Assembly: GCA_030745695.1 (NCBI GenBank)
Contig: JASLOB010000014.1
Span: forward strand, 1 to 43,283
Direction: 5' to 3'
Source: Candidatus Nanoarchaeia archaeon
GTDB taxonomy: Archaea > Nanobdellota > Nanobdellia > SCGC-AAA011-G17 > JACPNG01
DNA length: 43,283 nucleotides
Positions 5,851-13,807 of this stretch are shown in pieces; the stretch's first letter is position 1, and every line of letters begins with the position of its first letter. The notes beneath the pieces were generated by a model. It had not been told where the DNA came from, did no database searches, and was given only the letters and a program-made list of their open reading frames with translations. A program made the translations under genes and the position numbers.

Positions 5851-6483
5851 GTGAAAAAAGAGATATTAAAATTAATATTGATAGTATCGTTAATTTTTAT
5901 AATAGGTTGTACACAAAATATAGATAACATAATCATATGTAACTCACCCTATATTAAATCTTCTTTTGGTTGTTGTTTAGATAAAAATAATAATCTTATT
6001 TGTGATAGAGAAGAAGATCAAGAAGAAATTAAAAAATCTTTAGAAGAAGTTATAGTTAATGTTATACAAAAACCTAGAGAAGAGATTATTGAAAGACAAA
6101 AAAACTTAGAAAAATTAAGATCGGCACATAAATTTTGTAATCAAGATTTAGATTATAATTTCATGGAAATTTGTAGAGTTAGTGGTGATAAATTTAGATT
6201 ACTTGTTGCTAATGAAGGAAAAATAAATATAAGGAGATTCAAAGGAGAATTTATTATGATAGATAATTTCATTGTGGATAGATTATTATATTTTGATTCG
6301 GGAGTGGGGGAAGGGATAAGATTTAGAGATAGAGAATCAGATACTATATTTTTAGGAGAGGAGCCTATAGCAATAAGGATAACTCCAATCATAGTAGAAA
6401 ATGGAACAATAATAACTTGTTCAAAAAAATCACAAAAAATAGGAAATGTTTACTCTCCACTTAAAATGGAATTTTGTAGATGA
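5851..6483 (+). CDS. putative lipoprotein
   Basis: 210 aa from a GTG start. N-terminal signal peptide ends in the lipobox-like FIIGC. Confidence 0.55.
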   Translation: MKKEILKLILIVSLIFIIGCTQNIDNIIICNSPYIKSSFGCCLDKNNNLICDREEDQEEIKKSLEEVIVNVIQKPREEIIERQKNLEKLRSAHKFCNQDLDYNFMEICRVSGDKFRLLVANEGKINIRRFKGEFIMIDNFIVDRLLYFDSGVGEGIRFRDRESDTIFLGEEPIAIRITPIIVENGTIITCSKKSQKIGNVYSPLKMEFCR

Positions 6484-6484
6484 A

Positions 6485-6504
6485 TTCTTCCCCACGGCCG
6501 GATT
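6485..6504. repeat. 20-bp direct repeat identical to the tRNA-Tyr 3' end (att-like, distal copy)
   Basis: TTCTTCCCCACGGCCGGATT is identical to 12535-12554. It is a GC-rich 20-mer in AT-rich DNA. Confidence 0.8.
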
Positions 6505-6567: not shown

Positions 6568-7089
6568 TTATATTTTAAAATCCTTATGAACTTGTGAAGG
6601 TTTTGGGCCAATACTATTTTGATATTTTCCATGATATAAAACTATTTTTCCTTTTGGAACCCAGAAGCTTATTTGTCCAATCAACATTCCAGGATATAAT
6701 TTTATATTTTTAGTTGCATACAACTGAAAAGTTACGTTTCCTATAGAACCTAGGTCAATTAAATCAGCAGTAATATGTACAAATAAACCTAATCTTGCTA
6801 TTCCTGATTTGGCATGTATTAATGGTACTAATTTTTTACTTCCTACTATTTCTTTACTATGTCCTAAAATAAAATCTCCTTTTTTTAATAATAATCCTTT
6901 TTTTGGTATTTTTTTAATTTTATATTTATTTTCTATTGCAGGATCTAAAATTTTATTAATATAAGTTAAATATTCACTTCCTAATGTTAAATCATAAGAA
7001 TTTGTAGTAATATTTTTATGATTAAATGGTTTAATAATAATATTTCCTTTTCTGACTTGTTTTTTTATTTCTTCTCCAGTTAGTATCAT
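6568..7089 (-). CDS. dCTP deaminase/dUTPase-superfamily protein with catalytic Glu replaced by Gln
   Basis: 173 aa. MILTGEEI N-terminus, AKSGIARLGL (compare GRSSLARLGL), IDLGSIGNVTFQL (compare IDPGWSGCIVLEF) and GMLIGQISFW. Confidence 0.7.
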   Translation of the reverse strand: MILTGEEIKKQVRKGNIIIKPFNHKNITTNSYDLTLGSEYLTYINKILDPAIENKYKIKKIPKKGLLLKKGDFILGHSKEIVGSKKLVPLIHAKSGIARLGLFVHITADLIDLGSIGNVTFQLYATKNIKLYPGMLIGQISFWVPKGKIVLYHGKYQNSIGPKPSQVHKDFKI

Positions 7090-7595
7090 TTTAATCCTCT
7101 TAACTTAGATTGTTTAGGTTTATTATATTTTGAATAACTTTTTCTGTAAGGGATTATGTTGCCATAGTTATCCCAAAAAGAAATTTGTCCTATGATCATA
7201 TTTGGATAAATCCTAAGTGATTTTGCAGAGACCAATTCTAAGGTCCAAGAATGTTTAGAACCAGTATGCCCTAGATTTGCTGATACTTGTAAAAACAATC
7301 CCAACCTCCCTAATGAACTTCTACCAATTAGACTCATAGCATACTTTTTGCTACCAAGGATTTCATATGTGCTTGCTAGATATATTTGATGAGGTTTAAG
7401 AACAAAACCTTTCTTAGGAATTTTTTCCTTTTTCATTCTACTTTTAGAAAAAACAACTATTTCTTCTCCTATTCTATAATTATAACTATTAGGATTTATT
7501 TGATTTTTATTGAAAGGAGTGATAGTTATATTTGATTTTTTAATCTCTTTTATTATTTCATCTCCTGTCAATATCACTTTAGAACAACTCCACAT
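7086..7595 (-). CDS. dcd: dCTP deaminase-like protein
   Basis: 169 aa with GRSSLGRLGL, WTLEL (catalytic Glu kept) and NMIIGQISFW. An alternative GTG start at 7577 would give VILTGDEI and remove the overlap with the upstream gene. Confidence 0.75.
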   Translation of the reverse strand: MWSCSKVILTGDEIIKEIKKSNITITPFNKNQINPNSYNYRIGEEIVVFSKSRMKKEKIPKKGFVLKPHQIYLASTYEILGSKKYAMSLIGRSSLGRLGLFLQVSANLGHTGSKHSWTLELVSAKSLRIYPNMIIGQISFWDNYGNIIPYRKSYSKYNKPKQSKLRGLK

Positions 7596-8394
7596 ACCTC
7601 TTAGGATAGATACTTTTCCTATATCTCAACACTAAAACAGTATAACCTTGGTATGGTCTTAGGCTATTAGACATCTTCTTAATTTCTAATAGCCGATTAT
7701 ACATAGAATCGTATAATTCTTTACTATCAATTTTTTTCTCTTTACAAACTCTTTGAATTGTGCTATGACAATAATGTTCTAATTCCTCATCAGTTTCTTG
7801 TAATAGGTCATTTCTTTCTTCGTATAATATCTCAAGACCTTTATACATTTTGGTTATATTCTTATATGAATCTATAGTCGGAAGAATATCAAAAACTTTT
7901 TCAAATTTAGAAATCAAACTTTCAGGGATTGGTGATTTAATATAAAATGGTGAAGCTAAAATAAATCCTCCCTCTTCTAAATATCCAATACATTTTTTTA
8001 ACATTTCTTCAGGTCTAGGAAAAAACTTTAATGATGCCCCAAGAATAATATGTGTGAATTTTTCCTTTGTTTCGAACTTATAACCATCTTCTACAGAATA
8101 ATCAATTTTAATTTTAGAGGCATATTCCTTTTTATTTTCAATTGCTGCTTCCACAGATTTTTTGGAGATATCAAATGCTTTTCCTTTACAATCACTTATT
8201 AATGCCAACTCTCTTGAAGAAAAACCAGTAGAACATGCTACTTCTAAGATATTAGAATCTTTATTCAAATTAGAAAAGACTTTCCATTTAGACAGAGTAT
8301 TAAATGAGCCAGGAAGAACATTCCATTGATTGATAAAACCAACAAAATCAGTATAAGACATTTTCTCAATATCTTCAATTGTTGTCTCTTCCAT
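7579..8394 (-). CDS. class I SAM-dependent methyltransferase
   Basis: 271 aa. Motif I-like ILEVACSTGFSS followed by an acidic residue (AFD), with a Rossmann-type layout. Confidence 0.7.
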   Translation of the reverse strand: MEETTIEDIEKMSYTDFVGFINQWNVLPGSFNTLSKWKVFSNLNKDSNILEVACSTGFSSRELALISDCKGKAFDISKKSVEAAIENKKEYASKIKIDYSVEDGYKFETKEKFTHIILGASLKFFPRPEEMLKKCIGYLEEGGFILASPFYIKSPIPESLISKFEKVFDILPTIDSYKNITKMYKGLEILYEERNDLLQETDEELEHYCHSTIQRVCKEKKIDSKELYDSMYNRLLEIKKMSNSLRPYQGYTVLVLRYRKSIYPKRYVELF

Positions 8395-8395
8395 T

Positions 8396-9484
8396 TTATA
8401 TTACTCCTGCTTCAATTATCTTTATTTCTTTATTTTTTGCATCTAACTTGATTTTGATTCCATAAGGAATTGTCATCATAGGCATTATATGGCCAAATTG
8501 TAAATTTGTTGCGATAACTAAATCTTCTCTCCCATATTCTTTTGCTACTTCAAGTAAAGCACGTTCATATTTTTCAAAATTCTGTAAATGTTTTTTTAAT
8601 TTAATTTCATATTCACTATCATCAAATTCAATATCTCCTCCAGGGATTCCGAAAATAATTCCATTTATCTTATTTAAAATTCCTTGTGCACCATAGTTTC
8701 TTAGCCAATATTTAAATTGGTTTGGAGAGGGGATATCTTCAGAAGTCTCTAAGAATAAGATTGTGTTATTCCATGCAGATTCATTTGGCCATAATTTCGT
8801 TCCTTTAATAATCTCTAAAACATCTGCACAACCACCTATCAAATTTCCTTCTACCTCTCCTTTGCCTTGGATAAATTTAATTTGTACAGGCTCTTGCATT
8901 TTTCTTTTAATATCTTGATATTCTTTTTTCCAAGGAACTCTATCTAATGTCCAGCCTTCTTCATTATTTTTTATACCGCCTATAGGTTTTTCTGAAAAAA
9001 GGGCTTTCTCAAAATATTTTTTTGTAAAATCATCTATTCCACCATTTTCTGCAAATCCAAATAATACTGAAGGTCCATAAAAAGATAAAAGGCCTGCCTT
9101 TAAACATAAGAGATGGGTAACTGTACTATCAGAAAAACCAATAAATATTTTTGGATTATTTTTTATGATAGCTAAATGTTCTTCTTTTAAGAAATCTAAT
9201 AGTCTTATGGAATCATCCCCTCCAATTATTGAGATAATTGCTTTAACTTCAGGATTTTTAAATGCCCAAATTAAATCATTTAATCTTTCTTCAGGATGTG
9301 AATATATCCAATCAGGAGATTTTAATGCATTAGGTGTTTCTATAACTTTTAATTTAAAAGTTTCTTCTAACTGTCTTTTTCCAGTTTCATACTTATCCTT
9401 ATACTCAAAAGCGCCACCCCAAGATAAAGTAATAAATGCTACAGTATCTCCTTCTTTGAGTTTTTTTGGTTTAATGTAATCCAT
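8396..9484 (-). CDS. S66-family serine peptidase (LD-carboxypeptidase / MccF-like)
   Basis: 362 aa. GDTVAFITLS, IIGGDDS, GFSDST (nucleophile Ser), LFLETSE and FGH, matching the Ser-Glu-His triad layout. Length is nearer MccF than LdcA. Confidence 0.75.
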   Translation of the reverse strand: MDYIKPKKLKEGDTVAFITLSWGGAFEYKDKYETGKRQLEETFKLKVIETPNALKSPDWIYSHPEERLNDLIWAFKNPEVKAIISIIGGDDSIRLLDFLKEEHLAIIKNNPKIFIGFSDSTVTHLLCLKAGLLSFYGPSVLFGFAENGGIDDFTKKYFEKALFSEKPIGGIKNNEEGWTLDRVPWKKEYQDIKRKMQEPVQIKFIQGKGEVEGNLIGGCADVLEIIKGTKLWPNESAWNNTILFLETSEDIPSPNQFKYWLRNYGAQGILNKINGIIFGIPGGDIEFDDSEYEIKLKKHLQNFEKYERALLEVAKEYGREDLVIATNLQFGHIMPMMTIPYGIKIKLDAKNKEIKIIEAGVI

Positions 9485-9500
9485 TTTTATATTTTCCTAA

Positions 9501-10451
9501 TTATTGGTGTTGAAAATCTAGATCTCTACTAATCTCCACACCTAATCTTTTATCAAATTCTAATTGGAGAAAGTTCCTTAAAACACTTTCGCTCCATCTT
9601 GTAGATAAACTAAATGTATGTTGTAATAAAGAAATATTTCTCAAAATTTTATCTTTTTCAGTTTTATGCCTCTCCCCCATTAGATTAGATGGAATGCTTA
9701 ATATTGCCCCTAAACTTGAATAATTATCTAGTAATGTTTTAAAACAAAGATGTTTTTCTTCAATAGCATCATAAATAGACCAGGCACTATACACTTTATT
9801 ATTATTTTTTCTAGATAAAAAAGTTTCTGCTCCAAACCCAAATTCATAACCAATTAACTCCCCACTTGAATCTTGAATTTGAATTAATTGGCCAATTTCT
9901 TGAGGGTCATTTTCTCTTTGTAAAAGAGTAAAAGTTGCACCCCTACCAATTATACCTTCTAATCCATATCCCCATTGATAATAGATTTTTGGATTCGAAT
10001 CATTGGTTACTTCAATAGTTTTTCCAATTTCATCTAGGAATTCCATATCTTTTTGAGCATAAACTCTAACATCTCTAGGAGATATTGAATAACTCCCTAA
10101 TAAAAGTTCGAGTATTTCTAATTGAATTTCTCTTTTTGGCTTTCCTGTTAGAATACCTAGGGCATTAAAATAACCTAAAAATCTTTCAGGTACTAATTCT
10201 AATTTATTTTCCTCACATATTGTATCTCTTAATCCTTGAAGCCTTAAAGATGGCTGTCTCATACAAAGACCTTGTTCAGGAATATTTCTCTCTACTAAAA
10301 ATGATTTCCAAGGAGTTATAGTATCATTAGTAAATAGAATAGTTTCATCATCTGTTATCAATTCAGAAGAGGGAGAAATAGTGTATTCTCTTGATTCAAA
10401 ATATCTTAAAAATTGTCCAATTATTTTGTCTAGATCAGATTTTATTTTCAA
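9501..10451 (-). CDS. stand-alone, degenerate alanyl-tRNA synthetase catalytic-core paralogue
   Basis: 316 aa, colinear with the AlaRS N-terminus. FLRYFESREYTISPSSELITDDETILFTN compares with FLxFFxxKGHxxxxSxxLvPxxDPtLLFTN. MRQPSLRLQG compares with QRCVRAGG, EIGQLIQIQD with EIWNiVFMQF, and YEFGFGAETF with VDTGMGLERI. Most substrate-contacting motifs are substituted, and the editing and C-Ala domains are absent. Confidence 0.6.
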   Translation of the reverse strand: MKIKSDLDKIIGQFLRYFESREYTISPSSELITDDETILFTNDTITPWKSFLVERNIPEQGLCMRQPSLRLQGLRDTICEENKLELVPERFLGYFNALGILTGKPKREIQLEILELLLGSYSISPRDVRVYAQKDMEFLDEIGKTIEVTNDSNPKIYYQWGYGLEGIIGRGATFTLLQRENDPQEIGQLIQIQDSSGELIGYEFGFGAETFLSRKNNNKVYSAWSIYDAIEEKHLCFKTLLDNYSSLGAILSIPSNLMGERHKTEKDKILRNISLLQHTFSLSTRWSESVLRNFLQLEFDKRLGVEISRDLDFQHQ

Positions 10452-11998
10452 CCCAATAATCTCCTTATTCTATCTTTATCTTTTGATGACCAAAAATAAG
10501 TAGGGAGTCTAGGACCGTTATTTTTCCCAAATAATAATTGATAAACATCTTTAAAGAAACTCCTTTGAGCTATTTTCTTTTCTTGATCAGACATACCTTC
10601 TCTTTTTGGTATGCTATATATCTCTAATTCAATTTCATCTAAAGTTAGACCATCTTGAGATAGGACTTTCTTTTCAAGAGATCTAATTTTTTCTCTTGCA
10701 TCTGCTGACATTAAAGATAAATGAGAAGTATTAGGAGAATCTCTTAGCTCACTTCTCCCTTCTGAAAAGTGAGTTCTTGACCAATAATCACTTTTTTTAA
10801 GCCTATCTTCAATTGAAAAATCACTAAATTCTCCACCTTCAGATCTAAGAAGATCTTTAATAATTTCTAAGTTATAACCTGTAGCTTCCCCCAATCCAAA
10901 TATTTTTCTAAAAGGTATACTTCTAGACAATTCACTTTTTGTTTTTTCAGTAATTAATTTTCTGAATCCTTCTTCCCATCCTTCAACATCTGAATCAAAT
11001 TCTGCAAATGCTCTAATTACATCTTTATCTAAAGCGATATCTAAAGGAGCAGTTGGAGAACATCTAGCATATAAAAATTTTATCAACTCAGGAGGATATA
11101 CATTTAATAATTCTCCAGGTGTAATAACATTTCCAGAAGAACTTGACATTTTCCCTGCTTGTCCTTTTATTCTTACAAATTGATATTCTTGAAAATGTGG
11201 AGGTGAATTTTCAAATATTTCTTTGACTATTTGACTTGAAACATCATAACTACTTCCAGGACTCGCATGATCTGCCCCACCTGGTTCAAAATTTACAGAT
11301 TCAAAAACCCACCTCATAGGCCAATCAATCTTCCATGGTAATTTGATTACTCTATCTTTTGTAAAATCTATAGTATCTTTTTTACCAGAGTCGTGACATA
11401 AATATGTTAACTTACTATCACCATCATATGATAGAACTTTTGTGTTGTCTTTACCTGTAAATCTTGAATAAAGAACAATAGGAAAATAATTCTTTTTTTG
11501 TTCTTCAGTCATTCCCTGAGTCATATTCCTTGCTAAAATCTCTGCAATTTGACTTCTTTTATTTAATATTTCTTTAATTTGGAGATCATATTCTCCACTT
11601 TTATACATCTCTGTTTGTCTTATAAATCTTGGATTAATACCTAATTGAGATAAAGACTCCTCAAATTTTACTTCAAATCTTTCAGCATATGATTCATATT
11701 CTCCAAACGGATCATCTATTGAAGAATATGGTTTTCCAATTGAATTTTCAAGAGATTTAGGACTTCCAATAGGTATCTTTCTAAATTTATCAAAATCGTC
11801 CCAAGAAAATATAAATTCAGAATCAATTCCTTTTTGTTGTAATGCCCTATAAACTAACTCTGTGGTCATAACCTCCCTTAGGTTTCCAATATGTATTGGT
11901 CCAGATGGACTAATTCCTGAAGCACAAACTATCTTGCTCCCTCTGTGTTTCATTGCTAATCTATCTGCTATTTTGTAGGCCCAATGGCTATTTCCCAT
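10448..11998 (-). CDS. lysS: lysine--tRNA ligase, class I (archaeal type)
   Basis: 516 aa. HWAYKIADRL start, SPSGPIHIGNLREV (HIGH region) and GKMSSSSGN (KMSKS). Its stop overlaps the downstream start by 4 nt. Confidence 0.9.
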   Translation of the reverse strand: MGNSHWAYKIADRLAMKHRGSKIVCASGISPSGPIHIGNLREVMTTELVYRALQQKGIDSEFIFSWDDFDKFRKIPIGSPKSLENSIGKPYSSIDDPFGEYESYAERFEVKFEESLSQLGINPRFIRQTEMYKSGEYDLQIKEILNKRSQIAEILARNMTQGMTEEQKKNYFPIVLYSRFTGKDNTKVLSYDGDSKLTYLCHDSGKKDTIDFTKDRVIKLPWKIDWPMRWVFESVNFEPGGADHASPGSSYDVSSQIVKEIFENSPPHFQEYQFVRIKGQAGKMSSSSGNVITPGELLNVYPPELIKFLYARCSPTAPLDIALDKDVIRAFAEFDSDVEGWEEGFRKLITEKTKSELSRSIPFRKIFGLGEATGYNLEIIKDLLRSEGGEFSDFSIEDRLKKSDYWSRTHFSEGRSELRDSPNTSHLSLMSADAREKIRSLEKKVLSQDGLTLDEIELEIYSIPKREGMSDQEKKIAQRSFFKDVYQLLFGKNNGPRLPTYFWSSKDKDRIRRLLG

Positions 11999-12127
11999 AA
12001 TAATATATCTAAAGGTTGGTTTATAAGTGATACTATCTAGTAGTTAGTAACTATATTAGAATAAATTCAATAGAATTATTAAATATTTTATTAATAATAG
12101 TATATATCCATAAACACAAAAAATAAA

Positions 12128-12534: not shown

Positions 12535-12554
12535 TTCTTCCCCACGGCCGGATT
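12535..12554. repeat. 20-bp direct repeat (proximal copy) covering the tRNA-Tyr 3' end plus 4 nt downstream
   Basis: Identical to 6485-6504. Positions 12539-12554 are the discriminator, acceptor 3' strand, T-stem 3' strand and part of the T-loop. Confidence 0.8.
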
Positions 12555-12666
12555 CGAACCAGCAACCTTCCGGGACCGGCTGACTTATTTTCATCCAAAG
12601 CCGAATGCTTAGTCAATAAGTGAATTCATCTACAGCCGAACGCTCTACCAGTTGAGCTACGTGGGG
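12539..12666 (-). tRNA. tRNA-Tyr (anticodon GUA) with a ~55-nt intron in the anticodon loop; CCA not encoded
   Basis: Hand fold of the reverse complement: acceptor CCCCACG/CGTGGGG with A73; D arm GCTC-AACTGGTA-GAGC; anticodon stem TTCGG/CCGGA; loop CTGTAGA; variable AGGTT; T arm GCTGG-TTCGAAT-CCGGC. Mature length is 73 nt. C1-G72 is the archaeal/eukaryal Tyr identity pair. Confidence 0.85.
12574..12628 (-). other. tRNA-Tyr intron (boundaries ambiguous by 1 nt: 37/38 or 38/39)
   Basis: 55 nt lie between the anticodon loop and the CCGGA 3' strand. Internal helices ACTTATT/AATAAGT and TCGGCT/AGCCGG are possible. I could not fit a clean bulge-helix-bulge by eye. Confidence 0.6.
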
Positions 12667-12706: not shown

Positions 12707-13807
12707 TTAAAGAGATAACTCTTCAACTACTTTTTGAAGACCAGTTACTACTCTCTCATCCCTTTGTCTTATATCTAATTGAAATTTTTTATCTAATAAA
12801 TGTTGGATTCCTATAATGTACCTCATTGAAATTTTCATTCTTTCTTCATTAGTATATCCTTTTTCTCCTTTAGAAAATTCCCTAGCAAATTCTTTTGAAT
12901 AAGACATAGGATCCGTATTGTAACTAATTCTTTTTGGGTCCATATAATCACCAAGTAACCAAAATCTTGACGAGTCCATTGTATAAAGCTCATCTTGACT
13001 TACAATTTCTCCTTCTCTATTAATACCATGCTCTGTCTTAGTATCTACTAAAATAATACCTCTTCCTCTTAAAAATCCAGAAACAATACCAAACGCCATA
13101 AGAGAATTATTTCTAATATTCATATATTGTTCTGGAGTACATATTCCTCTTGAGAACAATTCTTTAGGTGATAAAGTTTCATCATGATCATCAGATTTAG
13201 TTGAAGGAGTATCCATAACATAAGGTAGCTTACAATTAGGAAACCATTCTTTATTTATTTTATGACTTGCAAATTCTTTTTCTCCTTTTGACCAAGCCTG
13301 AAATAAAGATGTTGGAGTTGAACTTTTAGCCATATATGCTCTAAGAACATTTTCAAATGGTATTTGAGTAAGATTCTCTGCTGCAATAACAACAGAATTA
13401 TCTTCTAATCCTGGAACATTTATTTGAGAAGTGCCAATTGCATGAGATACTAATCTTCTCATATGATGATGATTAGAAGCTAATATCTGATCTTTGAAAG
13501 GGATTTCTCCCCTATTTAGATCATGAGTTGAAATTCTTTGTGTTCTAACCATAATTCTTATTGGAGTACCATCTATTGTATTTAATGGAGGATTTTCACA
13601 TTCATATGTCTCTCCATTTTTAGTATAAGAAAATCTTCCCCCAAAAATAGAATCAGAAACTTTTCCAGGATAAACTTTAAATCCTGTTAATTTTGTTACT
13701 AATCCTGAATCTAATATTGCTTGTGTAGAATTAACTATCCCTTCACTATCTATATATTTATTGACTAAACTTCTAACTTCTGTCCCTGTTAAATGATTTT
13801 CATTCAT
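12707..13807 (-). CDS. purC: SAICAR synthetase (PurC)-family protein, divergent long form
   Basis: 366 aa with QRISTHDL, IPFKDQIL, PFENVLRAYMAKS, DTPSTKSDDHDETLS, GIILVDTKTEHG and DELYTMDSSRFW. All are colinear with eukaryote-type SAICAR synthase motifs. Confidence 0.65.
   Translation of the reverse strand: MNENHLTGTEVRSLVNKYIDSEGIVNSTQAILDSGLVTKLTGFKVYPGKVSDSIFGGRFSYTKNGETYECENPPLNTIDGTPIRIMVRTQRISTHDLNRGEIPFKDQILASNHHHMRRLVSHAIGTSQINVPGLEDNSVVIAAENLTQIPFENVLRAYMAKSSTPTSLFQAWSKGEKEFASHKINKEWFPNCKLPYVMDTPSTKSDDHDETLSPKELFSRGICTPEQYMNIRNNSLMAFGIVSGFLRGRGIILVDTKTEHGINREGEIVSQDELYTMDSSRFWLLGDYMDPKRISYNTDPMSYSKEFAREFSKGEKGYTNEERMKISMRYIIGIQHLLDKKFQLDIRQRDERVVTGLQKVVEELSL

What the first reader, a model, noticed from the sequence alone, without database searches (positions are those of the whole stretch)
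6568..11998. Tightly coupled six-gene operon: class I LysRS, degenerate AlaRS core, MccF-like S66 peptidase, SAM methyltransferase, two Dcd-like proteins
All six genes are on the minus strand and are almost fused. There are overlaps at 10448-10451, 7579-7595 and 7086-7089, a 1-nt gap at 8395 and a 16-nt gap at 9485-9500, which argues for co-translation as one unit. I know of no described pathway with this combination. Truncated aaRS paralogues often do non-translational chemistry; established examples are HisZ, AsnA, EpmA/PoxA, GluQRS and the SerRS-like amino acid:carrier-protein ligases. MccF-type S66 enzymes hydrolyse aminoacyl-nucleotide antibiotics (microcin C, aminoacyl-sulfamoyl adenylates). 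A methyltransferase and nucleotide-binding Dcd-fold proteins complete the set. My working hypothesis, which is inference only, is a module that makes, modifies or detoxifies an aminoacyl-nucleotide or modified pyrimidine nucleotide. LysRS would then be either the housekeeping enzyme that shares the promoter or a dedicated or resistant copy.
Basis: partly seen in the sequence, partly recalled or inferred. Interest (0 to 1): 0.8.

Follow-up and report, generated by a model that had tools for sequence, protein, structure and literature searches.

The report
Mobile aminoacyl-nucleotide gene cassette in DPANN
A six-gene operon in a tiny symbiotic archaeon is a conserved, horizontally mobile cassette that combines enzymes resembling those of three antibiotic pathways (microcin C, ascamycin, albomycin) with an unusual pair of dCTP-deaminase-like proteins, and it most likely makes and handles a lysine-linked nucleotide compound that has not been described.

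Summary
Six tightly packed minus-strand genes (6568-11998) encode class I LysRS, a truncated AlaRS-like protein, an MccF-clade S66 hydrolase, an MccD-like SAM enzyme and two Dcd-fold proteins. One reported overlap (7579-7595) is probably a 1-nt gap.

The same order recurs in DPANN relatives with unrelated flanks. The core MccD-like->DCD1->DCD2, with S66 and an aaRS or aaRS-like gene, is widespread in DPANN and CPR bacteria.

The AlaRS-like protein carries the hallmark N->Q and D->E changes of AcmF, the aa-tRNA-dependent aminoacyl transferase of ascamycin biosynthesis. It has also lost the motif 3 arginine. Its subtypes co-vary with the neighbouring synthetase (LysRS, LeuRS, AlaRS fragment).

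The two Dcd paralogues are degenerate in complementary ways. DCD1 keeps the deaminase Glu and loses the motif III Asp. DCD2 does the reverse.

The block is bracketed by a 20-nt direct repeat of a tRNA-Tyr 3' end. Similar brackets, always enclosing the synthetase, occur in about ten other loci.

Best reading: a mobile cassette that makes, tailors and hydrolyses a lysyl-pyrimidine-nucleotide conjugate, with LysRS as the cassette-borne donor or immunity enzyme. No publication describing it was found. The chemistry is inferred, not shown.

The parts
6485..6504 (.). Distal att-like direct repeat, a perfect 20-nt copy of the tRNA-Tyr 3' end (AATCCGGCCGTGGGGAAGAA on the minus strand)
   Evidence: (2 matches, 0 expected in 100 shuffles)
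6568..7089 (-). DCD2: Dcd-fold protein that keeps the Ser/Arg phosphate motif and the motif III Asp (LIDLG) but has Gln at the deaminase catalytic Glu position (TFQLY)
   Evidence: TIGR02274 102 bits; n=55: Asp 100%; Glu->Gln 51, Met 4
7086..7577 (-). DCD1: Dcd-fold protein that keeps GRSSLGR and the catalytic Glu (WTLEL) but has His at the motif III Asp position (LGHTG). The probable GTG start is at 7577; the listed ORF runs to 7595
   Evidence: 78.7 bits, below the 92.8 cutoff; n=62: Glu 100%; Asp->His 60, Gln 2
7579..8394 (-). MccD-like class I SAM-dependent transferase, probably a 3-amino-3-carboxypropyl transferase
   Evidence: only significant PDB hit is MccD 5fcd, E 3.7e-23, full length, shared ACSTGFSSRE motif; over 436 close homologues in DPANN and CPR; adjacent PLP decarboxylase in bacterial versions
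8396..9484 (-). MccF-clade S66 serine hydrolase with Ser-Glu-His triad motifs GFSDST (116), LFLET (243) and FGH (330)
   Evidence: (E 2.6e-97 to B. anthracis BA3275; about 1e-27 to MccF; 5e-15 to LdcA)
9501..10451 (-). Truncated AlaRS-like protein (AcmF-like) consisting of the aminoacylation core and part of the tRNA-recognition helices. R70 (motif 2), E185, Q188 and E203 are invariant; the motif 3 Arg is replaced by Thr210
   Evidence: (TM 0.64-0.70 for nearly all AlaRS catalytic-fragment hits)
10448..11998 (-). Class I lysyl-tRNA synthetase with intact HIGN (36-39) and KMSSS (283-287) motifs. It is the first gene of the operon and lies inside the repeat-bracketed block
   Evidence: (TIGR00467 380 bits against a 147 cutoff)
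11999..12127 (.). AT-rich divergent intergenic region with TTATAA at 12021-12026, 23-28 nt upstream of the LysRS ATG. This is a possible archaeal TATA box for a leaderless transcript
   Evidence: read from the sequence; weak evidence in a 27% GC genome
12128..12532 (+). 134-aa ORF of unknown function inside the bracketed block, with no family match and no homologue in other cassettes
12535..12554 (.). Proximal att-like direct repeat, made of the last 16 nt of tRNA-Tyr plus 4 nt downstream
12539..12666 (-). tRNA-Tyr (anticodon GUA) with an intron of about 58 nt; the probable integration target
   Evidence: ARAGORN missed it

Best explanation
The operon is a horizontally mobile biosynthetic cassette for an aminoacylated, probably lysylated, pyrimidine-nucleotide conjugate. 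It follows the logic of known aminoacyl-nucleoside and aminoacyl-nucleotide antibiotics. The proposed steps are inferred unless stated otherwise. (1) The Dcd-fold pair, translationally coupled and probably a hetero-oligomer, binds a cytosine or uracil (deoxy)nucleoside triphosphate and converts it into the nucleotide scaffold. DCD1 supplies deaminase chemistry and DCD2 supplies alpha-phosphate chemistry. (2) The MccD-like enzyme transfers the 3-amino-3-carboxypropyl group of SAM to this scaffold. In the bacterial versions a PLP decarboxylase trims that group to aminopropyl, as MccD and MccE do in microcin C. (3) The cassette's class I LysRS charges tRNA-Lys. The AlaRS-derived protein no longer activates amino acids and, like AcmF in ascamycin biosynthesis, transfers the aminoacyl group from aa-tRNA to an amine on the nucleotide acceptor held in the former adenylate site. 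(4) The MccF-clade S66 hydrolase cleaves the resulting aminoacyl-nucleotide amide, for self-protection or recycling. LysRS may also act as the insensitive target copy, as AbmK and AgnB2 do. Shown here: the domain identities, the residue patterns, conservation of the module, co-variation of the transferase with its synthetase, and the repeat brackets. Inferred: substrates, order of steps, product and biological role.
For: Conservation: the same six-gene order occurs in L001-L003, L005, L017, L084 and L172, with AlaRS-like identity of 37-73% and unrelated flanks. The order MccD->DCD1->DCD2 is almost invariant across 67 non-redundant groups from DPANN and bacteria. Among loci with at least 2.5 kb on both sides, all 19 true modules have an AlaRS-like gene and/or an aaRS within 3.5 kb. 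Microcin C parts: MccD is the only significant PDB match of the methyltransferase. The S66 protein is in the MccF clade. A PLP decarboxylase sits next to MccD-like in the commonest bacterial form. The published roles of MccD, MccE1 and MccF are in PMC8323819. AcmF parallel: AlaRS catalytic fold; truncated; N->Q and D->E in 13/13 DPANN-type and 16/16 family members; motif 3 Arg->Thr in 13/13; motif 2 Arg kept in 46/46. Counterparts of AcmF Arg93, Trp100/Phe104, Glu216, Gln219 and Glu232 are present, and most are invariant in the family. AcmF uses aa-tRNA made by the cluster synthetase AcmD, and the hydrolase AcmE reverses the reaction. Co-variation: AlaRS-like clades track LysRS, archaeal LeuRS, bacterial LeuRS or a near-canonical AlaRS fragment. 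L012-L014 have MccD 76-77% identical to the window but an AlaRS-like protein only 36% identical, next to LeuRS. Dcd pair: complementary degeneracy is conserved in 62 and 55 sequences, with 4-nt overlaps between the two genes in several loci. Mobility: a 20-nt tRNA-Tyr repeat brackets the window block. Brackets of 17 to over 70 nt enclose the synthetase in about ten other loci, against shuffled maxima of 10-16 nt. A serine recombinase lies next to the module in L062. Precedents for aaRS genes inside such clusters (abmK, agnB2, MetRS, AspRS) are.
Against: There is no biochemical evidence, and no product, acceptor or donor is known. The cassette contains no exporter and no MccB-type nucleotidyl transferase, so the way the amino acid-nucleotide linkage forms is unexplained. 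AcmF works with an AlaRS and tRNA-Ala, so use of Lys-tRNA-Lys by an AlaRS-derived fold is an extrapolation supported only by co-variation. I could not obtain the AcmF sequence for direct comparison, so the match rests on residue identities reported in a review. The window version lacks the decarboxylase. DPANN and CPR genomes rarely carry secondary-metabolite clusters, and the very high conservation of MccD-like (56-79% identity across domains) is unusual for an antibiotic pathway and could indicate a primary-metabolic or symbiosis function. LysRS copy number in the source genome is unknown. No integrase is recognisable inside the window block.
Confidence: 0.55

Rival explanations
1. The same kind of product is made, but the AlaRS-like protein is still an ATP-dependent amino acid-activating ligase, like AsnA, EpmA or the amino acid:carrier-protein ligases. 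It forms the aminoacyl-adenylate itself and couples it to the nucleotide. LysRS is then only an immunity or housekeeping gene.
For: The class II catalytic fold is retained, the motif 2 Arg is invariant and an acidic residue remains at the alpha-amino-binding position. Some bacterial clades keep the motif 3 Arg and Asn. Bacterial modules without an AlaRS-like gene have a class II LysRS-like paralogue with EpmA similarity, which could act as a direct ligase.
Against: In the window's clade the motif 3 Arg, invariant in class II enzymes, is Thr in 13/13. The N->Q and D->E changes are the ones reported to abolish aminoacyl-AMP formation in AcmF. Strict co-variation with a genuine synthetase is not needed if the ligase activates its own substrate.
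Confidence: 0.15
2. This is a nucleotide-pool or DNA-precursor pathway, not an aminoacyl conjugate. DCD1 and DCD2 convert dCTP to dUMP, and the MccD-like enzyme alkylates or methylates the pyrimidine. The result would be a SAM-dependent route to a modified (deoxy)nucleotide for DNA or RNA in genomes with reduced folate and nucleotide metabolism.
For: MccD-like->DCD1->DCD2 is the most invariant part of the module. It is enriched in DPANN and CPR, which have reduced metabolism, and MccD-like is unusually conserved. DCD2 passes the dCTP deaminase HMM cutoff.
Against: This reading does not explain the constant company of an MccF-clade hydrolase and an aaRS or aaRS-like gene, or the PLP decarboxylase paired with MccD-like as in microcin C. 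Neither DCD paralogue keeps the full catalytic set. No polymerase, glycosylase, kinase or thymidylate-synthase-like partner was seen in the flanks. Mobile cassette behaviour is unusual for core nucleotide metabolism.
Confidence: 0.1
3. This is purely a resistance or detoxification island against exogenous aminoacyl-nucleotide toxins. S66 hydrolyses them, the MccD-like enzyme modifies them, the Dcd-fold and AlaRS-like proteins sequester them, and LysRS is a resistant target copy.
For: Stand-alone MccF homologues confer microcin C resistance. LysRS-S66 adjacency recurs without the rest of the module (L147 and L171). Resistant aaRS copies are a known strategy.
Against: MccD and MccE are biosynthetic tailoring enzymes, not resistance factors. 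Five or six co-evolving enzymes, including a transferase with a conserved active site, is excessive for detoxification. Co-variation of the AlaRS-like protein with the synthetase points to a substrate relationship.
Confidence: 0.07
4. This is a translation-linked modification system. The cassette modifies tRNA-Lys, a translation factor or LysRS itself, for example through acp or aminopropyl or lysyl modification analogous to EpmA/EF-P or acp3U. The Dcd-fold proteins would act as nucleotide-binding accessory subunits.
For: There is persistent linkage to aaRS genes, especially lysine-specific ones of both classes. The class II LysRS-like partner has EpmA similarity of 105-113 bits. The AlaRS-like protein keeps tRNA-recognition helices.
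Against: Dcd-fold trimers bind mononucleotides, and a role on macromolecules has no precedent that I know of. An MccF-type hydrolase and an MccE-type decarboxylase fit small-molecule chemistry. Partners also include LeuRS and AlaRS fragments. No tRNA-Lys or EF-P/aIF5A gene is linked, and the adjacent tRNA is Tyr.
Confidence: 0.05
5. The adjacency of housekeeping LysRS, housekeeping Dcd genes and unrelated genes is fortuitous, or the 316-aa protein is one half of a split AlaRS.
For: DPANN genomes are compact, and unrelated genes are often packed and co-transcribed. Split AlaRS exists in Nanoarchaeum (my own knowledge).
Against: The order is conserved with different flanks across archaea and bacteria. 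The AlaRS-like protein scores 22.6 bits against a 457-bit cutoff for alaS and lacks essential residues. The DCD pair has a conserved non-canonical residue pattern. The block is bracketed by repeats.
Confidence: 0.03

Closest known systems
Ascamycin acmD/acmE/acmF sub-cluster (Streptomyces sp. 80H647; PMC12945691, primary report ACS Catal 2024 14:3533)
   Same: It has a truncated AlaRS-like protein (aminoacylation and tRNA-recognition domains only) with N->Q and D->E active-site changes and a retained motif 2 Arg. A genuine aaRS encoded beside it supplies aa-tRNA. A co-encoded hydrolase removes the aminoacyl group from the aminoacyl-nucleoside product (searches compared).
   Different: Here the partner synthetase is class I LysRS (elsewhere LeuRS or an AlaRS fragment), not AlaRS. 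The hydrolase is S66/MccF-type, not an alpha/beta hydrolase. There are no sulfamate or halogenation genes. The host is a DPANN archaeon. The acceptor is unknown and probably pyrimidine-based.
Microcin C maturation and immunity genes mccD, mccE (N-terminal decarboxylase) and mccF
   Same: The MccD-like SAM enzyme gives a full-length match to MccD, and MccD is its only significant PDB hit. The S66 hydrolase is in the MccF clade. A PLP decarboxylase sits next to MccD-like in bacterial versions.
   Different: There is no MccB (ThiF-like adenylyltransferase) and no MccC exporter, and no MccA precursor peptide was identified. The window version has no decarboxylase. An AlaRS-like protein and a Dcd-fold pair take the place of the nucleotidylation machinery.
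Albomycin abmF/abmK and agrocin 84 agnB2 (aaRS genes inside clusters for aaRS inhibitors)
   Same: A real synthetase is embedded in the cluster. In albomycin it supplies the activated amino acid to a dedicated transferase and also confers immunity. One bacterial version (L006) also carries a methyltransferase and a carbamoyltransferase, as albomycin does for cytosine tailoring.
   Different: The enzyme families used for scaffold assembly are different. There is no siderophore or opine-like uptake moiety. The cassette is small (about 6 kb) and mobile.
dCTP deaminase / bifunctional DCD-DUT (dUTPase superfamily)
   Same: Both paralogues match PF22769 and solved Dcd structures and keep the Ser...Arg phosphate-binding motif.
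   Different: The catalytic set is split. DCD1 keeps the deaminase Glu but has His at the motif III Asp position. DCD2 keeps the Asp but has Gln (rarely Met) at the Glu position. The two are always paired and always follow MccD-like. I found no described Dcd with this arrangement.
tRNA-targeted integrative genomic islands
   Same: The block lies directly 3' of a tRNA gene and ends with a perfect repeat of the tRNA 3' end. Another cassette sits between two tRNA-Leu copies.
   Different: There is no recognisable integrase within the roughly 6-kb window block. Other cassettes use non-tRNA targets, such as the 3' end of gyrA in L021.

Membership tests
Class I lysyl-tRNA synthetase (TIGR00467 / PF01921) | Full-length HMM match above the curated cutoff | tested here: met
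   380.4 bits against a 147.55 cutoff, covering residues 5-513; PF01921 at 357.8 bits
Class I lysyl-tRNA synthetase (TIGR00467 / PF01921) | HIGH-type and KMSKS-type signature motifs | tested here: met
   HIGN at 36-39 and KMSSS at 283-287, read from the translation; H36, G38, N39, K283 and S285-287 are invariant among cassette LysRS
Canonical alanyl-tRNA synthetase (including one half of a split AlaRS) | HMM match above the curated cutoff | tested here: not met
   PF01411 30.0 bits against 30.3, N-terminal 60 aa only; TIGR00344 22.6 bits against 457
Canonical alanyl-tRNA synthetase (including one half of a split AlaRS) | Class II motif 3 arginine, and the Asn and Asp of the alanine/adenylate site | tested here: not met
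   R->T210, N->Q188 and D->E203, invariant in the family
AcmF-type AlaRS-like aa-tRNA-dependent aminoacyl transferase | Truncated AlaRS consisting of the aminoacylation domain and tRNA-recognition helices, without editing or C-Ala domains | tested here: met
   316 aa; AF2 model with pLDDT 83; Foldseek TM 0.64-0.70 to nearly all AlaRS catalytic fragments
AcmF-type AlaRS-like aa-tRNA-dependent aminoacyl transferase | N->Q and D->E substitutions, with the motif 2 Arg and the E-x-x-Q element retained | tested here: met
   Q188, E203, R70 and E185 are invariant; these features are described for AcmF
AcmF-type AlaRS-like aa-tRNA-dependent aminoacyl transferase | A co-encoded genuine aaRS that supplies the aa-tRNA donor | tested here: met
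   LysRS lies immediately upstream, and AlaRS-like clades co-vary with LysRS, LeuRS or an AlaRS fragment. The partner here is not AlaRS
AcmF-type AlaRS-like aa-tRNA-dependent aminoacyl transferase | Direct sequence relatedness to AcmF, and aa-tRNA-dependent activity | not testable with these tools
MccF-type S66 peptidase | Both S66 domains and the Ser-His-Glu triad | tested here: met
   PF02016 at 89.7 bits and PF17676 at 82 bits; GFSDST, LFLET and FGH motifs
MccF-type S66 peptidase | Closer to MccF-clade proteins than to the murein LD-carboxypeptidase LdcA | tested here: met
   E 2.6e-97 to BA3275 and about 1e-27 to E. coli and B. anthracis MccF, against 5e-15 to LdcA; the LdcA equivalog scores 53 bits against a 378 cutoff
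MccF-type S66 peptidase | Hydrolysis of aminoacyl-nucleotides | not testable with these tools
   Needs an enzyme assay
MccD (SAM:3-amino-3-carboxypropyl transferase of microcin C) | Specific full-length similarity to MccD beyond the generic methyltransferase fold | tested here: met
   5fcd at E 3.7e-23 over residues 2-257; the next PDB hit is at E 0.0099; shared ACSTGFSSRE and C-terminal YQG motifs
MccD (SAM:3-amino-3-carboxypropyl transferase of microcin C) | Partner PLP decarboxylase (MccE N-terminal domain type) | tested here: not met
   Absent from the window cassette but present next to MccD-like in most bacterial versions
Microcin C-type biosynthetic gene cluster | MccB ThiF-like nucleotidyl transferase and MccC exporter | tested here: not met
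   All ORFs of at least 60 aa in the bracketed block are accounted for, and none is ThiF-like or a transporter. None was seen in related loci
Microcin C-type biosynthetic gene cluster | A short MccA-like precursor peptide gene | not tested
   Seven-codon ORFs cannot be assessed meaningfully in 27% GC DNA with these tools
dCTP deaminase / DCD-DUT | The complete catalytic set (Ser, Arg, motif III Asp, catalytic Glu) in one polypeptide | tested here: not met
   DCD1 has Asp->His and DCD2 has Glu->Gln, conserved in 62 and 55 sequences
tRNA-integrating genomic island | Direct repeats of the tRNA 3' end at both borders | tested here: met
   A perfect 20-nt repeat with 0 expected by chance
tRNA-integrating genomic island | An integrase or recombinase gene inside the island | tested here: not met
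   The only extra ORF (134 aa) has no family match. A serine recombinase lies next to a bacterial cassette (L062)
Known anti-phage defence systems (PADLOC) | Match of the components to defence-system models | tested here: not met
   No hits for the DCDs, S66 or the AlaRS-like protein; only a generic methyltransferase match

The most novel reading that the evidence does not exclude
The cassette encodes a route to N-acyl phosphoramidate nucleotides (the warhead chemistry of microcin C, agrocin 84 and phosmidosine) that does not use MccB. DCD1 deaminates (d)CTP and releases ammonia inside a DCD1/DCD2 hetero-oligomer. DCD2, which cannot deaminate but keeps the alpha-phosphate catalytic Asp, uses that ammonia in place of water to cleave the alpha-beta bond and produce a (deoxy)uridine 5'-phosphoramidate. 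The AcmF-like protein acylates the P-NH2 group with lysine from Lys-tRNA-Lys. The MccD-like enzyme alkylates the phosphate. The product would be a non-hydrolysable lysyl-nucleotide that inhibits LysRS. Ultra-small DPANN and CPR symbionts would use it against hosts or competitors, with the cassette-borne LysRS and the MccF-like hydrolase providing immunity. Swapping the transferase and synthetase pair (LysRS, LeuRS, AlaRS) would retarget the warhead.
Probability: 0.12. Interest if true: 0.93.

Novelty: new variant of a known kind. Interest (0 to 1): 0.8.

Why it matters
If the reading is right, DPANN archaea and CPR bacteria share a small mobile cassette for an aminoacyl-nucleotide compound. 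These organisms have minimal genomes and are thought to lack secondary metabolism. The cassette would be a candidate molecular tool for their interactions with hosts, which are largely unexplained.

It would extend the newly discovered AcmF type of aa-tRNA-dependent transferase from a single Streptomyces enzyme to a large family. The profile search found 1,118 representative clusters, and nearly all of the best 150 are truncated. Partner synthetases appear to be interchangeable, which suggests a natural system for retargeting aaRS inhibitors and a possible chemoenzymatic platform.

It would also assign a first non-housekeeping role to the dCTP deaminase fold, through an obligate pair with divided catalytic residues.

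All of these points can be tested directly with six small soluble proteins.

Tried and rejected
1. Defence-system reading: PADLOC gave no hits for the DCDs, S66 or the AlaRS-like protein.

2. Promoter and terminator scan: counts were at or below the shuffle expectation, and the tool does not cover archaeal promoters. It is used only to note that there is no terminator-like site on the minus strand inside the operon.

3. The upstream tRNA as tRNA-Lys: it is tRNA-Tyr(GUA) with an intron.

4. Counting LysRS copies through the GTDB genome scan: the two back-translated patterns returned mostly bacterial class I LysRS at 44% identity or less, none linked to the module, and the window's lineage is not among the species representatives. 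Copy number stays unresolved.

5. Literature searches for the gene combination, for Dcd in nucleotide natural products, and for 'SrmL' found no description. The searchable library leaves out most subscription journals.

6. Sequence search of the AlaRS-like protein against the PDB gave only a marginal N-terminal hit, so the fold search was needed.

7. A large automatic alignment misplaced the Asn/Gln column of the AlaRS-like proteins. I recounted it by motif.

8. The 134-aa ORF as an integrase remnant: no family match and no homologue in other cassettes.

9. NCBIfam has no dedicated models for the core proteins.

10. Split canonical AlaRS, housekeeping Dcd and chance adjacency were all considered and rejected (see the rival explanations).

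Full report
**1. Observation**

- 10448-11998 is a class I LysRS (TIGR00467, 380 bits against a cutoff of 147).
- 9501-10451 matches the AlaRS family only over its first 60 residues (PF01411, 30.0 bits against a 30.3 cutoff).
- 8396-9484 has both S66 peptidase domains.
- 7579-8394 is a class I SAM-dependent methyltransferase fold.
- 7086-7595 and 6568-7089 are both dCTP-deaminase-like (PF22769).

The junctions are as reported, with one correction. Every homologue of the upstream Dcd-like protein begins MILTG. In the window this corresponds to a GTG at 7577, so the 17-nt overlap at 7579-7595 is more likely a 1-nt gap.

The window is a cellular, low-GC (about 27%) archaeal genome. It encodes Rad50/Mre11, Sua5, DnaK, GluRS, RNase J and an intron-containing tRNA. 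Named relatives of the cassette proteins come from Woesearchaeota, Nanobdellota and Nanoarchaeota MAGs, so a DPANN origin is likely.

**2. The arrangement is conserved**

The AlaRS-like protein belongs to a small clade of 17 proteins in the word-indexed search. Contigs encoding members that are only 37-73% identical carry the same order, LysRS, AlaRS-like, S66, methyltransferase, DCD, DCD, with entirely different flanking genes. In the nearest relative the upstream 505-aa gene is a LysRS 63% identical to the window's.

**3. What the individual proteins are**

S66 protein:
- It is 55% identical (E = 2.6e-97) to Bacillus anthracis BA3275.
- It matches E. coli and B. anthracis MccF at about 1e-27 and the murein enzyme LdcA only at 5e-15.
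- Its Ser, Glu and His motifs are intact.

Methyltransferase:
- Its only significant match among solved structures is MccD (5fcd, E = 3.7e-23, full length). The two share the unusual ACSTGFSSRE SAM-motif region.
- MccD transfers the 3-amino-3-carboxypropyl group of SAM to the microcin C nucleotide. The N-terminal domain of MccE then decarboxylates that group. MccF hydrolyses aminoacyl- and peptidyl-nucleotides (PMC8323819).

AlaRS-like protein:
- The AlphaFold model has pLDDT 83. It superposes on AlaRS catalytic fragments with TM 0.64-0.70 for all but one chain, Foldseek probability 1.00.
- The family keeps the class II motif 2 arginine (R70).
- The motif 3 arginine is replaced by threonine (T210).
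- It has Gln at the Asn of the canonical EIWN element (Q188) and Glu at the alpha-amino-binding Asp (E203).
- These hold in 13/13 DPANN-type sequences and in all 16 family members.

**4. The AcmF precedent**

A 2026 review (PMC12945691) describes AcmF of the ascamycin pathway.
- AcmF is a truncated AlaRS-like protein with only the aminoacylation and tRNA-recognition domains.
- It lacks most ATP and alanine activation residues.
- It carries two critical substitutions, N219Q and D232E.
- It does not charge tRNA. It transfers the aminoacyl group from Ala-tRNA-Ala, made by the cluster-encoded AlaRS AcmD, onto the sulfamate NH2 of a nucleoside. The hydrolase AcmE reverses the reaction.

The residues proposed to hold the nucleoside acceptor in AcmF are Arg93, Trp100/Phe104, Glu216 and Gln219, and Glu232 is essential. 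The window's protein has counterparts for all of them (R70, F92/Y94/F95, E185, Q188, E203), and most are invariant in its family.

The window operon therefore reproduces the AcmD/AcmF/AcmE logic: a genuine synthetase, an AlaRS-derived transferase and a hydrolase. The differences are that the synthetase is LysRS and the hydrolase is MccF-type.

**5. The module is much wider than this lineage**

The MccD-like protein has over 436 close homologues. The 120 listed are 56-79% identical and come from DPANN archaea and also from Moranbacteria and other Patescibacteria. I examined 80 metagenome loci recovered with an MccD-like alignment, together with the loci fetched earlier.
- They fall into 67 non-redundant groups.
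- The order MccD-like, DCD1, DCD2 is almost invariant.
- S66 is usually present.
- The commonest bacterial form is S66, PLP decarboxylase (lysA/nspC-like), MccD-like, DCD1, DCD2. This is the MccF, MccE N-domain and MccD trio.
- Of the 23 groups with at least 2.5 kb of flank on both sides, 4 are lone distant MccD homologues.
- All 19 true modules have an AlaRS-like gene and/or a synthetase within 3.5 kb.

**6. Co-variation of the transferase with a synthetase**

The AlaRS-like proteins fall into clades that track the neighbouring aaRS.

| AlaRS-like clade | Loci | Neighbouring synthetase |
|---|---|---|
| Window's clade | window, L172, L017, L072, L005, L001 | class I LysRS |
| Distinct archaeal clade | L012-L015 | archaeal-type LeuRS |
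| Bacterial clade | L008, L025, L026, L071 | bacterial LeuRS |
| Common Patescibacteria clade | e.g. L006, L028, L051, L062 | near-canonical AlaRS catalytic fragment (436 bits to alaS) |

L012-L014 have S66, MccD-like and DCD proteins that are the window's closest relatives (MccD 76-77% identical). Their AlaRS-like protein is nevertheless only 36% identical and sits beside LeuRS.

Bacterial modules without an AlaRS-like gene have other partners directly after DCD2. One is a divergent class II LysRS-like protein with similarity to EpmA. The other is a protein matching the NCBIfam model 'PheS-related mystery ligase SrmL'. A further bacterial form has a full class I LysRS 1.4 kb downstream (L063, L065, L067).

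The transferase and its synthetase therefore behave as an exchangeable pair, and lysine-specific enzymes are the commonest partners. This pattern is expected if the synthetase supplies the donor, as AcmD and AbmK do. It also fits a synthetase that is the protected target, as AbmK, AgnB2 and cluster-borne MetRS or AspRS are.

**7. The Dcd pair is not housekeeping Dcd**

I aligned the paralogues to M. tuberculosis Dcd. The two types are degenerate in complementary ways, and the pattern is essentially invariant in archaeal and bacterial cassettes.

| Type | n | Ser-Ser...Arg motif | Motif III Asp | Deaminase Glu |
|---|---|---|---|---|
| DCD1 | 62 | kept, 100% | His 60, Gln 2 | Glu 100% |
| DCD2 | 55 | first Ser and Arg 100% | Asp 100% | Gln 51, Met 4 |

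In several loci the two genes overlap by 4 nt, which is consistent with a stoichiometric complex. In dUTPase-fold trimers the active sites lie between subunits (established knowledge), so a hetero-oligomer with divided chemistry is plausible. No tool available here could test it. I found no report of such a pair, or of a Dcd-fold protein in a nucleotide natural-product pathway.

**8. The block is a mobile cassette, and the synthetase is inside it**

The tRNA just upstream on the same strand is tRNA-Tyr(GUA) with an intron of about 58 nt. Its last 16 nt plus the next 4 nt (12535-12554) are repeated perfectly at 6485-6504, just beyond the DCD2 stop codon. A 17-mer from the repeat occurs exactly twice in the window, and none is expected in 100 shuffles. 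The repeats bracket about 6.03 kb containing the six genes and one 134-aa ORF of unknown function.

A systematic search for direct repeats bracketing the module found the following, against longest shuffled matches of 10-16 nt.

| Locus | Exact repeat length (nt) | Note |
|---|---|---|
| L040 | 70 | similarity extends further |
| L049 | 66 | |
| L072 | 65 | two tRNA-Leu(UAG) genes flank the block |
| L015 | 32 | |
| L021, L022 | 28 | within a 167-nt repeat at 88%, a copy of the gyrA 3' end |
| L086 | 22 | |
| L078 | 21 | |
| Window | 20 | tRNA-Tyr 3' end |
| L058, L061 | 19 | |
| L012 | 17 | |

In every case the partner synthetase lies inside the bracket. One bacterial cassette has a large serine recombinase directly beside it (L062). 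No integrase is recognisable in the window block.

This fits the near-identity of MccD-like proteins across the two domains and the different genomic positions of the cassette in close relatives.

LysRS copy number in the source genome could not be determined.
- There is no second LysRS in the 43-kb window.
- The GTDB scan did not reach the window's lineage.
- The closest LysRS relatives, about 20 proteins at 51-63% identity, include several on contigs whose lengths match contigs known to carry the cassette.
- One 382-kb DPANN contig has two class I LysRS genes 6.6 kb apart, together with S66, class II aaRS-like and methyltransferase genes. Duplication therefore does occur in this context.

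**9. Mechanism proposed (inference)**

- The Dcd pair converts a cytosine or uracil nucleoside triphosphate into the nucleotide scaffold.
- The MccD-like enzyme adds a 3-amino-3-carboxypropyl group. Where the decarboxylase is present, this group is trimmed to aminopropyl.
- LysRS charges tRNA-Lys.
- The AcmF-like protein transfers lysine to an amine of the scaffold, which is bound in the former adenylate pocket.
- The MccF-like hydrolase cleaves the conjugate, for self-protection or recycling.

The most novel reading the evidence allows is that the Dcd pair itself creates the amine. DCD1 would release ammonia from (d)CTP. DCD2 would use it in place of water at the alpha-phosphate. The result is a nucleoside 5'-phosphoramidate, whose P-NH2 group is the analogue of the sulfamate NH2 that AcmF acylates. 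The product would then carry the N-acyl phosphoramidate linkage that MccD decorates and MccF cleaves in microcin C. Each family would keep a role close to its known chemistry. This is untested, and I give it about 12%.

**10. Rivals and limits**

Four alternatives remain possible and are scored separately:
- an ATP-dependent ligase role for the AlaRS-like protein;
- a nucleotide-pool or nucleic-acid modification pathway centred on MccD-like, DCD1 and DCD2;
- a pure resistance island;
- a translation-linked modification system.

Points against the antibiotic-type reading:
- there is no exporter and no MccB-type enzyme;
- MccD-like is unusually highly conserved;
- secondary metabolism is rare in DPANN and CPR;
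- the AcmF comparison rests on published residue identities, not on an alignment.

Chance adjacency, split canonical AlaRS, housekeeping Dcd and a known defence system are contradicted by the data.

**11. Novelty**

Searches of the accessible literature found no description of this gene combination, of the Dcd pair, or of AlaRS-like transferases outside ascamycin. NCBIfam has no models for the core proteins and calls one accessory ligase a 'mystery ligase'.

A profile of the window's clade finds 1,118 representative clusters at E <= 0.001. All but one of the best 150 are shorter than 470 aa, so truncated AlaRS-like proteins are a large family that has hardly been studied.

I classify the cassette as a new variant of a known kind, the aminoacyl-nucleoside and aminoacyl-nucleotide pathways that use an aaRS-derived transferase with an embedded synthetase and hydrolase. 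It has one component with no precedent, the split Dcd pair, and an unexpected host range and mobility.

Noticed in passing
window 6485-6504 and 12535-12554: A perfect 20-nt direct repeat of the tRNA-Tyr 3' end brackets the operon and one unknown 134-aa ORF (about 6.03 kb). This is the signature of an integrated element, but no integrase is present inside.
   Followed up: yes
window 12539-12666 (-): tRNA-Tyr (anticodon GUA) with an intron of about 58 nt after position 37. Rfam found it, but ARAGORN missed it.
   Followed up: yes
JGI 3300072015, 382-kb contig (no DNA returned): Two class I LysRS genes (497 and 529 aa) lie 6.6 kb apart. Between them are an S66 peptidase, a 330-aa protein with no domain, a class II aaRS-like protein lacking an anticodon domain, a methyltransferase and an AspRS/AsnRS-like gene. 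This is a different aaRS-rich island, possibly a related system without MccD or DCD.
   Followed up: no
L173:986-7877 (Pacearchaeota contig): A class II aaRS-like gene overlaps a class I LysRS by 1 nt, and both are convergent with an S66 peptidase followed by a double-ABC ATPase and a CbiQ-type transporter. LysRS-S66 adjacency also occurs in two Bacillota loci (L147, L171).
   Followed up: partly
L048:11986-14667, and likewise in L027, L032, L040, L046, L049, L050 and L060: Bacterial modules lacking an AlaRS-like gene carry a divergent class II LysRS-like protein (264 bits, below the 468 cutoff, with similarity to EpmA). Convergent with it is a protein matching the NCBIfam model 'PheS-related mystery ligase SrmL' (408 bits). 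No literature on SrmL was found.
   Followed up: partly
L062:7114-8409 (-): A large serine recombinase (Resolvase, Recombinase and Zn-ribbon domains) lies directly next to a bacterial cassette.
   Followed up: no
L072:431-515 and 6266-6352: Two tRNA-Leu(UAG) genes flank the cassette AlaRS-like, S66, MccD-like, DCD1, DCD2, LysRS. The LysRS here is divergent (TIGR00467 137.5 bits, below the 147.55 cutoff) and sits at the 3' end of the cassette.
   Followed up: partly
L006:12623-15128; L014:9350-11047: A second methyltransferase and a carbamoyltransferase (Carbam_trans_N/C) follow some cassettes. This recalls the cytosine N-methylation and N-carbamoylation seen in albomycin.
   Followed up: no
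L008:9858-10976, L068:11924-13156, L083:11910-13091: Radical-SAM-like or unannotated proteins of about 370-410 aa recur beside some bacterial cassettes. The protein called 'u372' in my census has a CxxxCxxC-type N-terminus.
   Followed up: no
L048:3978-6263: Two proteins containing only the PEP-utilising (swivel phosphohistidine) domain lie upstream of a Patescibacteria cassette on a 608-kb contig.
   Followed up: no
Genome-contig scan: Among GTDB species representatives, the nearest relatives of this archaeal-type class I LysRS (44% identity or less) are mostly bacterial: Saccharibacteria, Paceibacterota, Peregrinibacteria, Clostridia and Bacillus-related genera. The scan used only two peptide patterns, so it is biased.
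   Followed up: partly
window 12707-13807 (-): A SAICAR-synthetase-like protein (366 aa) in which the Pfam domain starts only at residue 84, so it has an unexplained N-terminal extension.
   Followed up: no
L005:2645-2890: An extra 81-aa ORF with no family match lies between the AlaRS-like and S66 genes in one DPANN cassette. A weak match to a 527-aa ORF occurs in L024.
   Followed up: no
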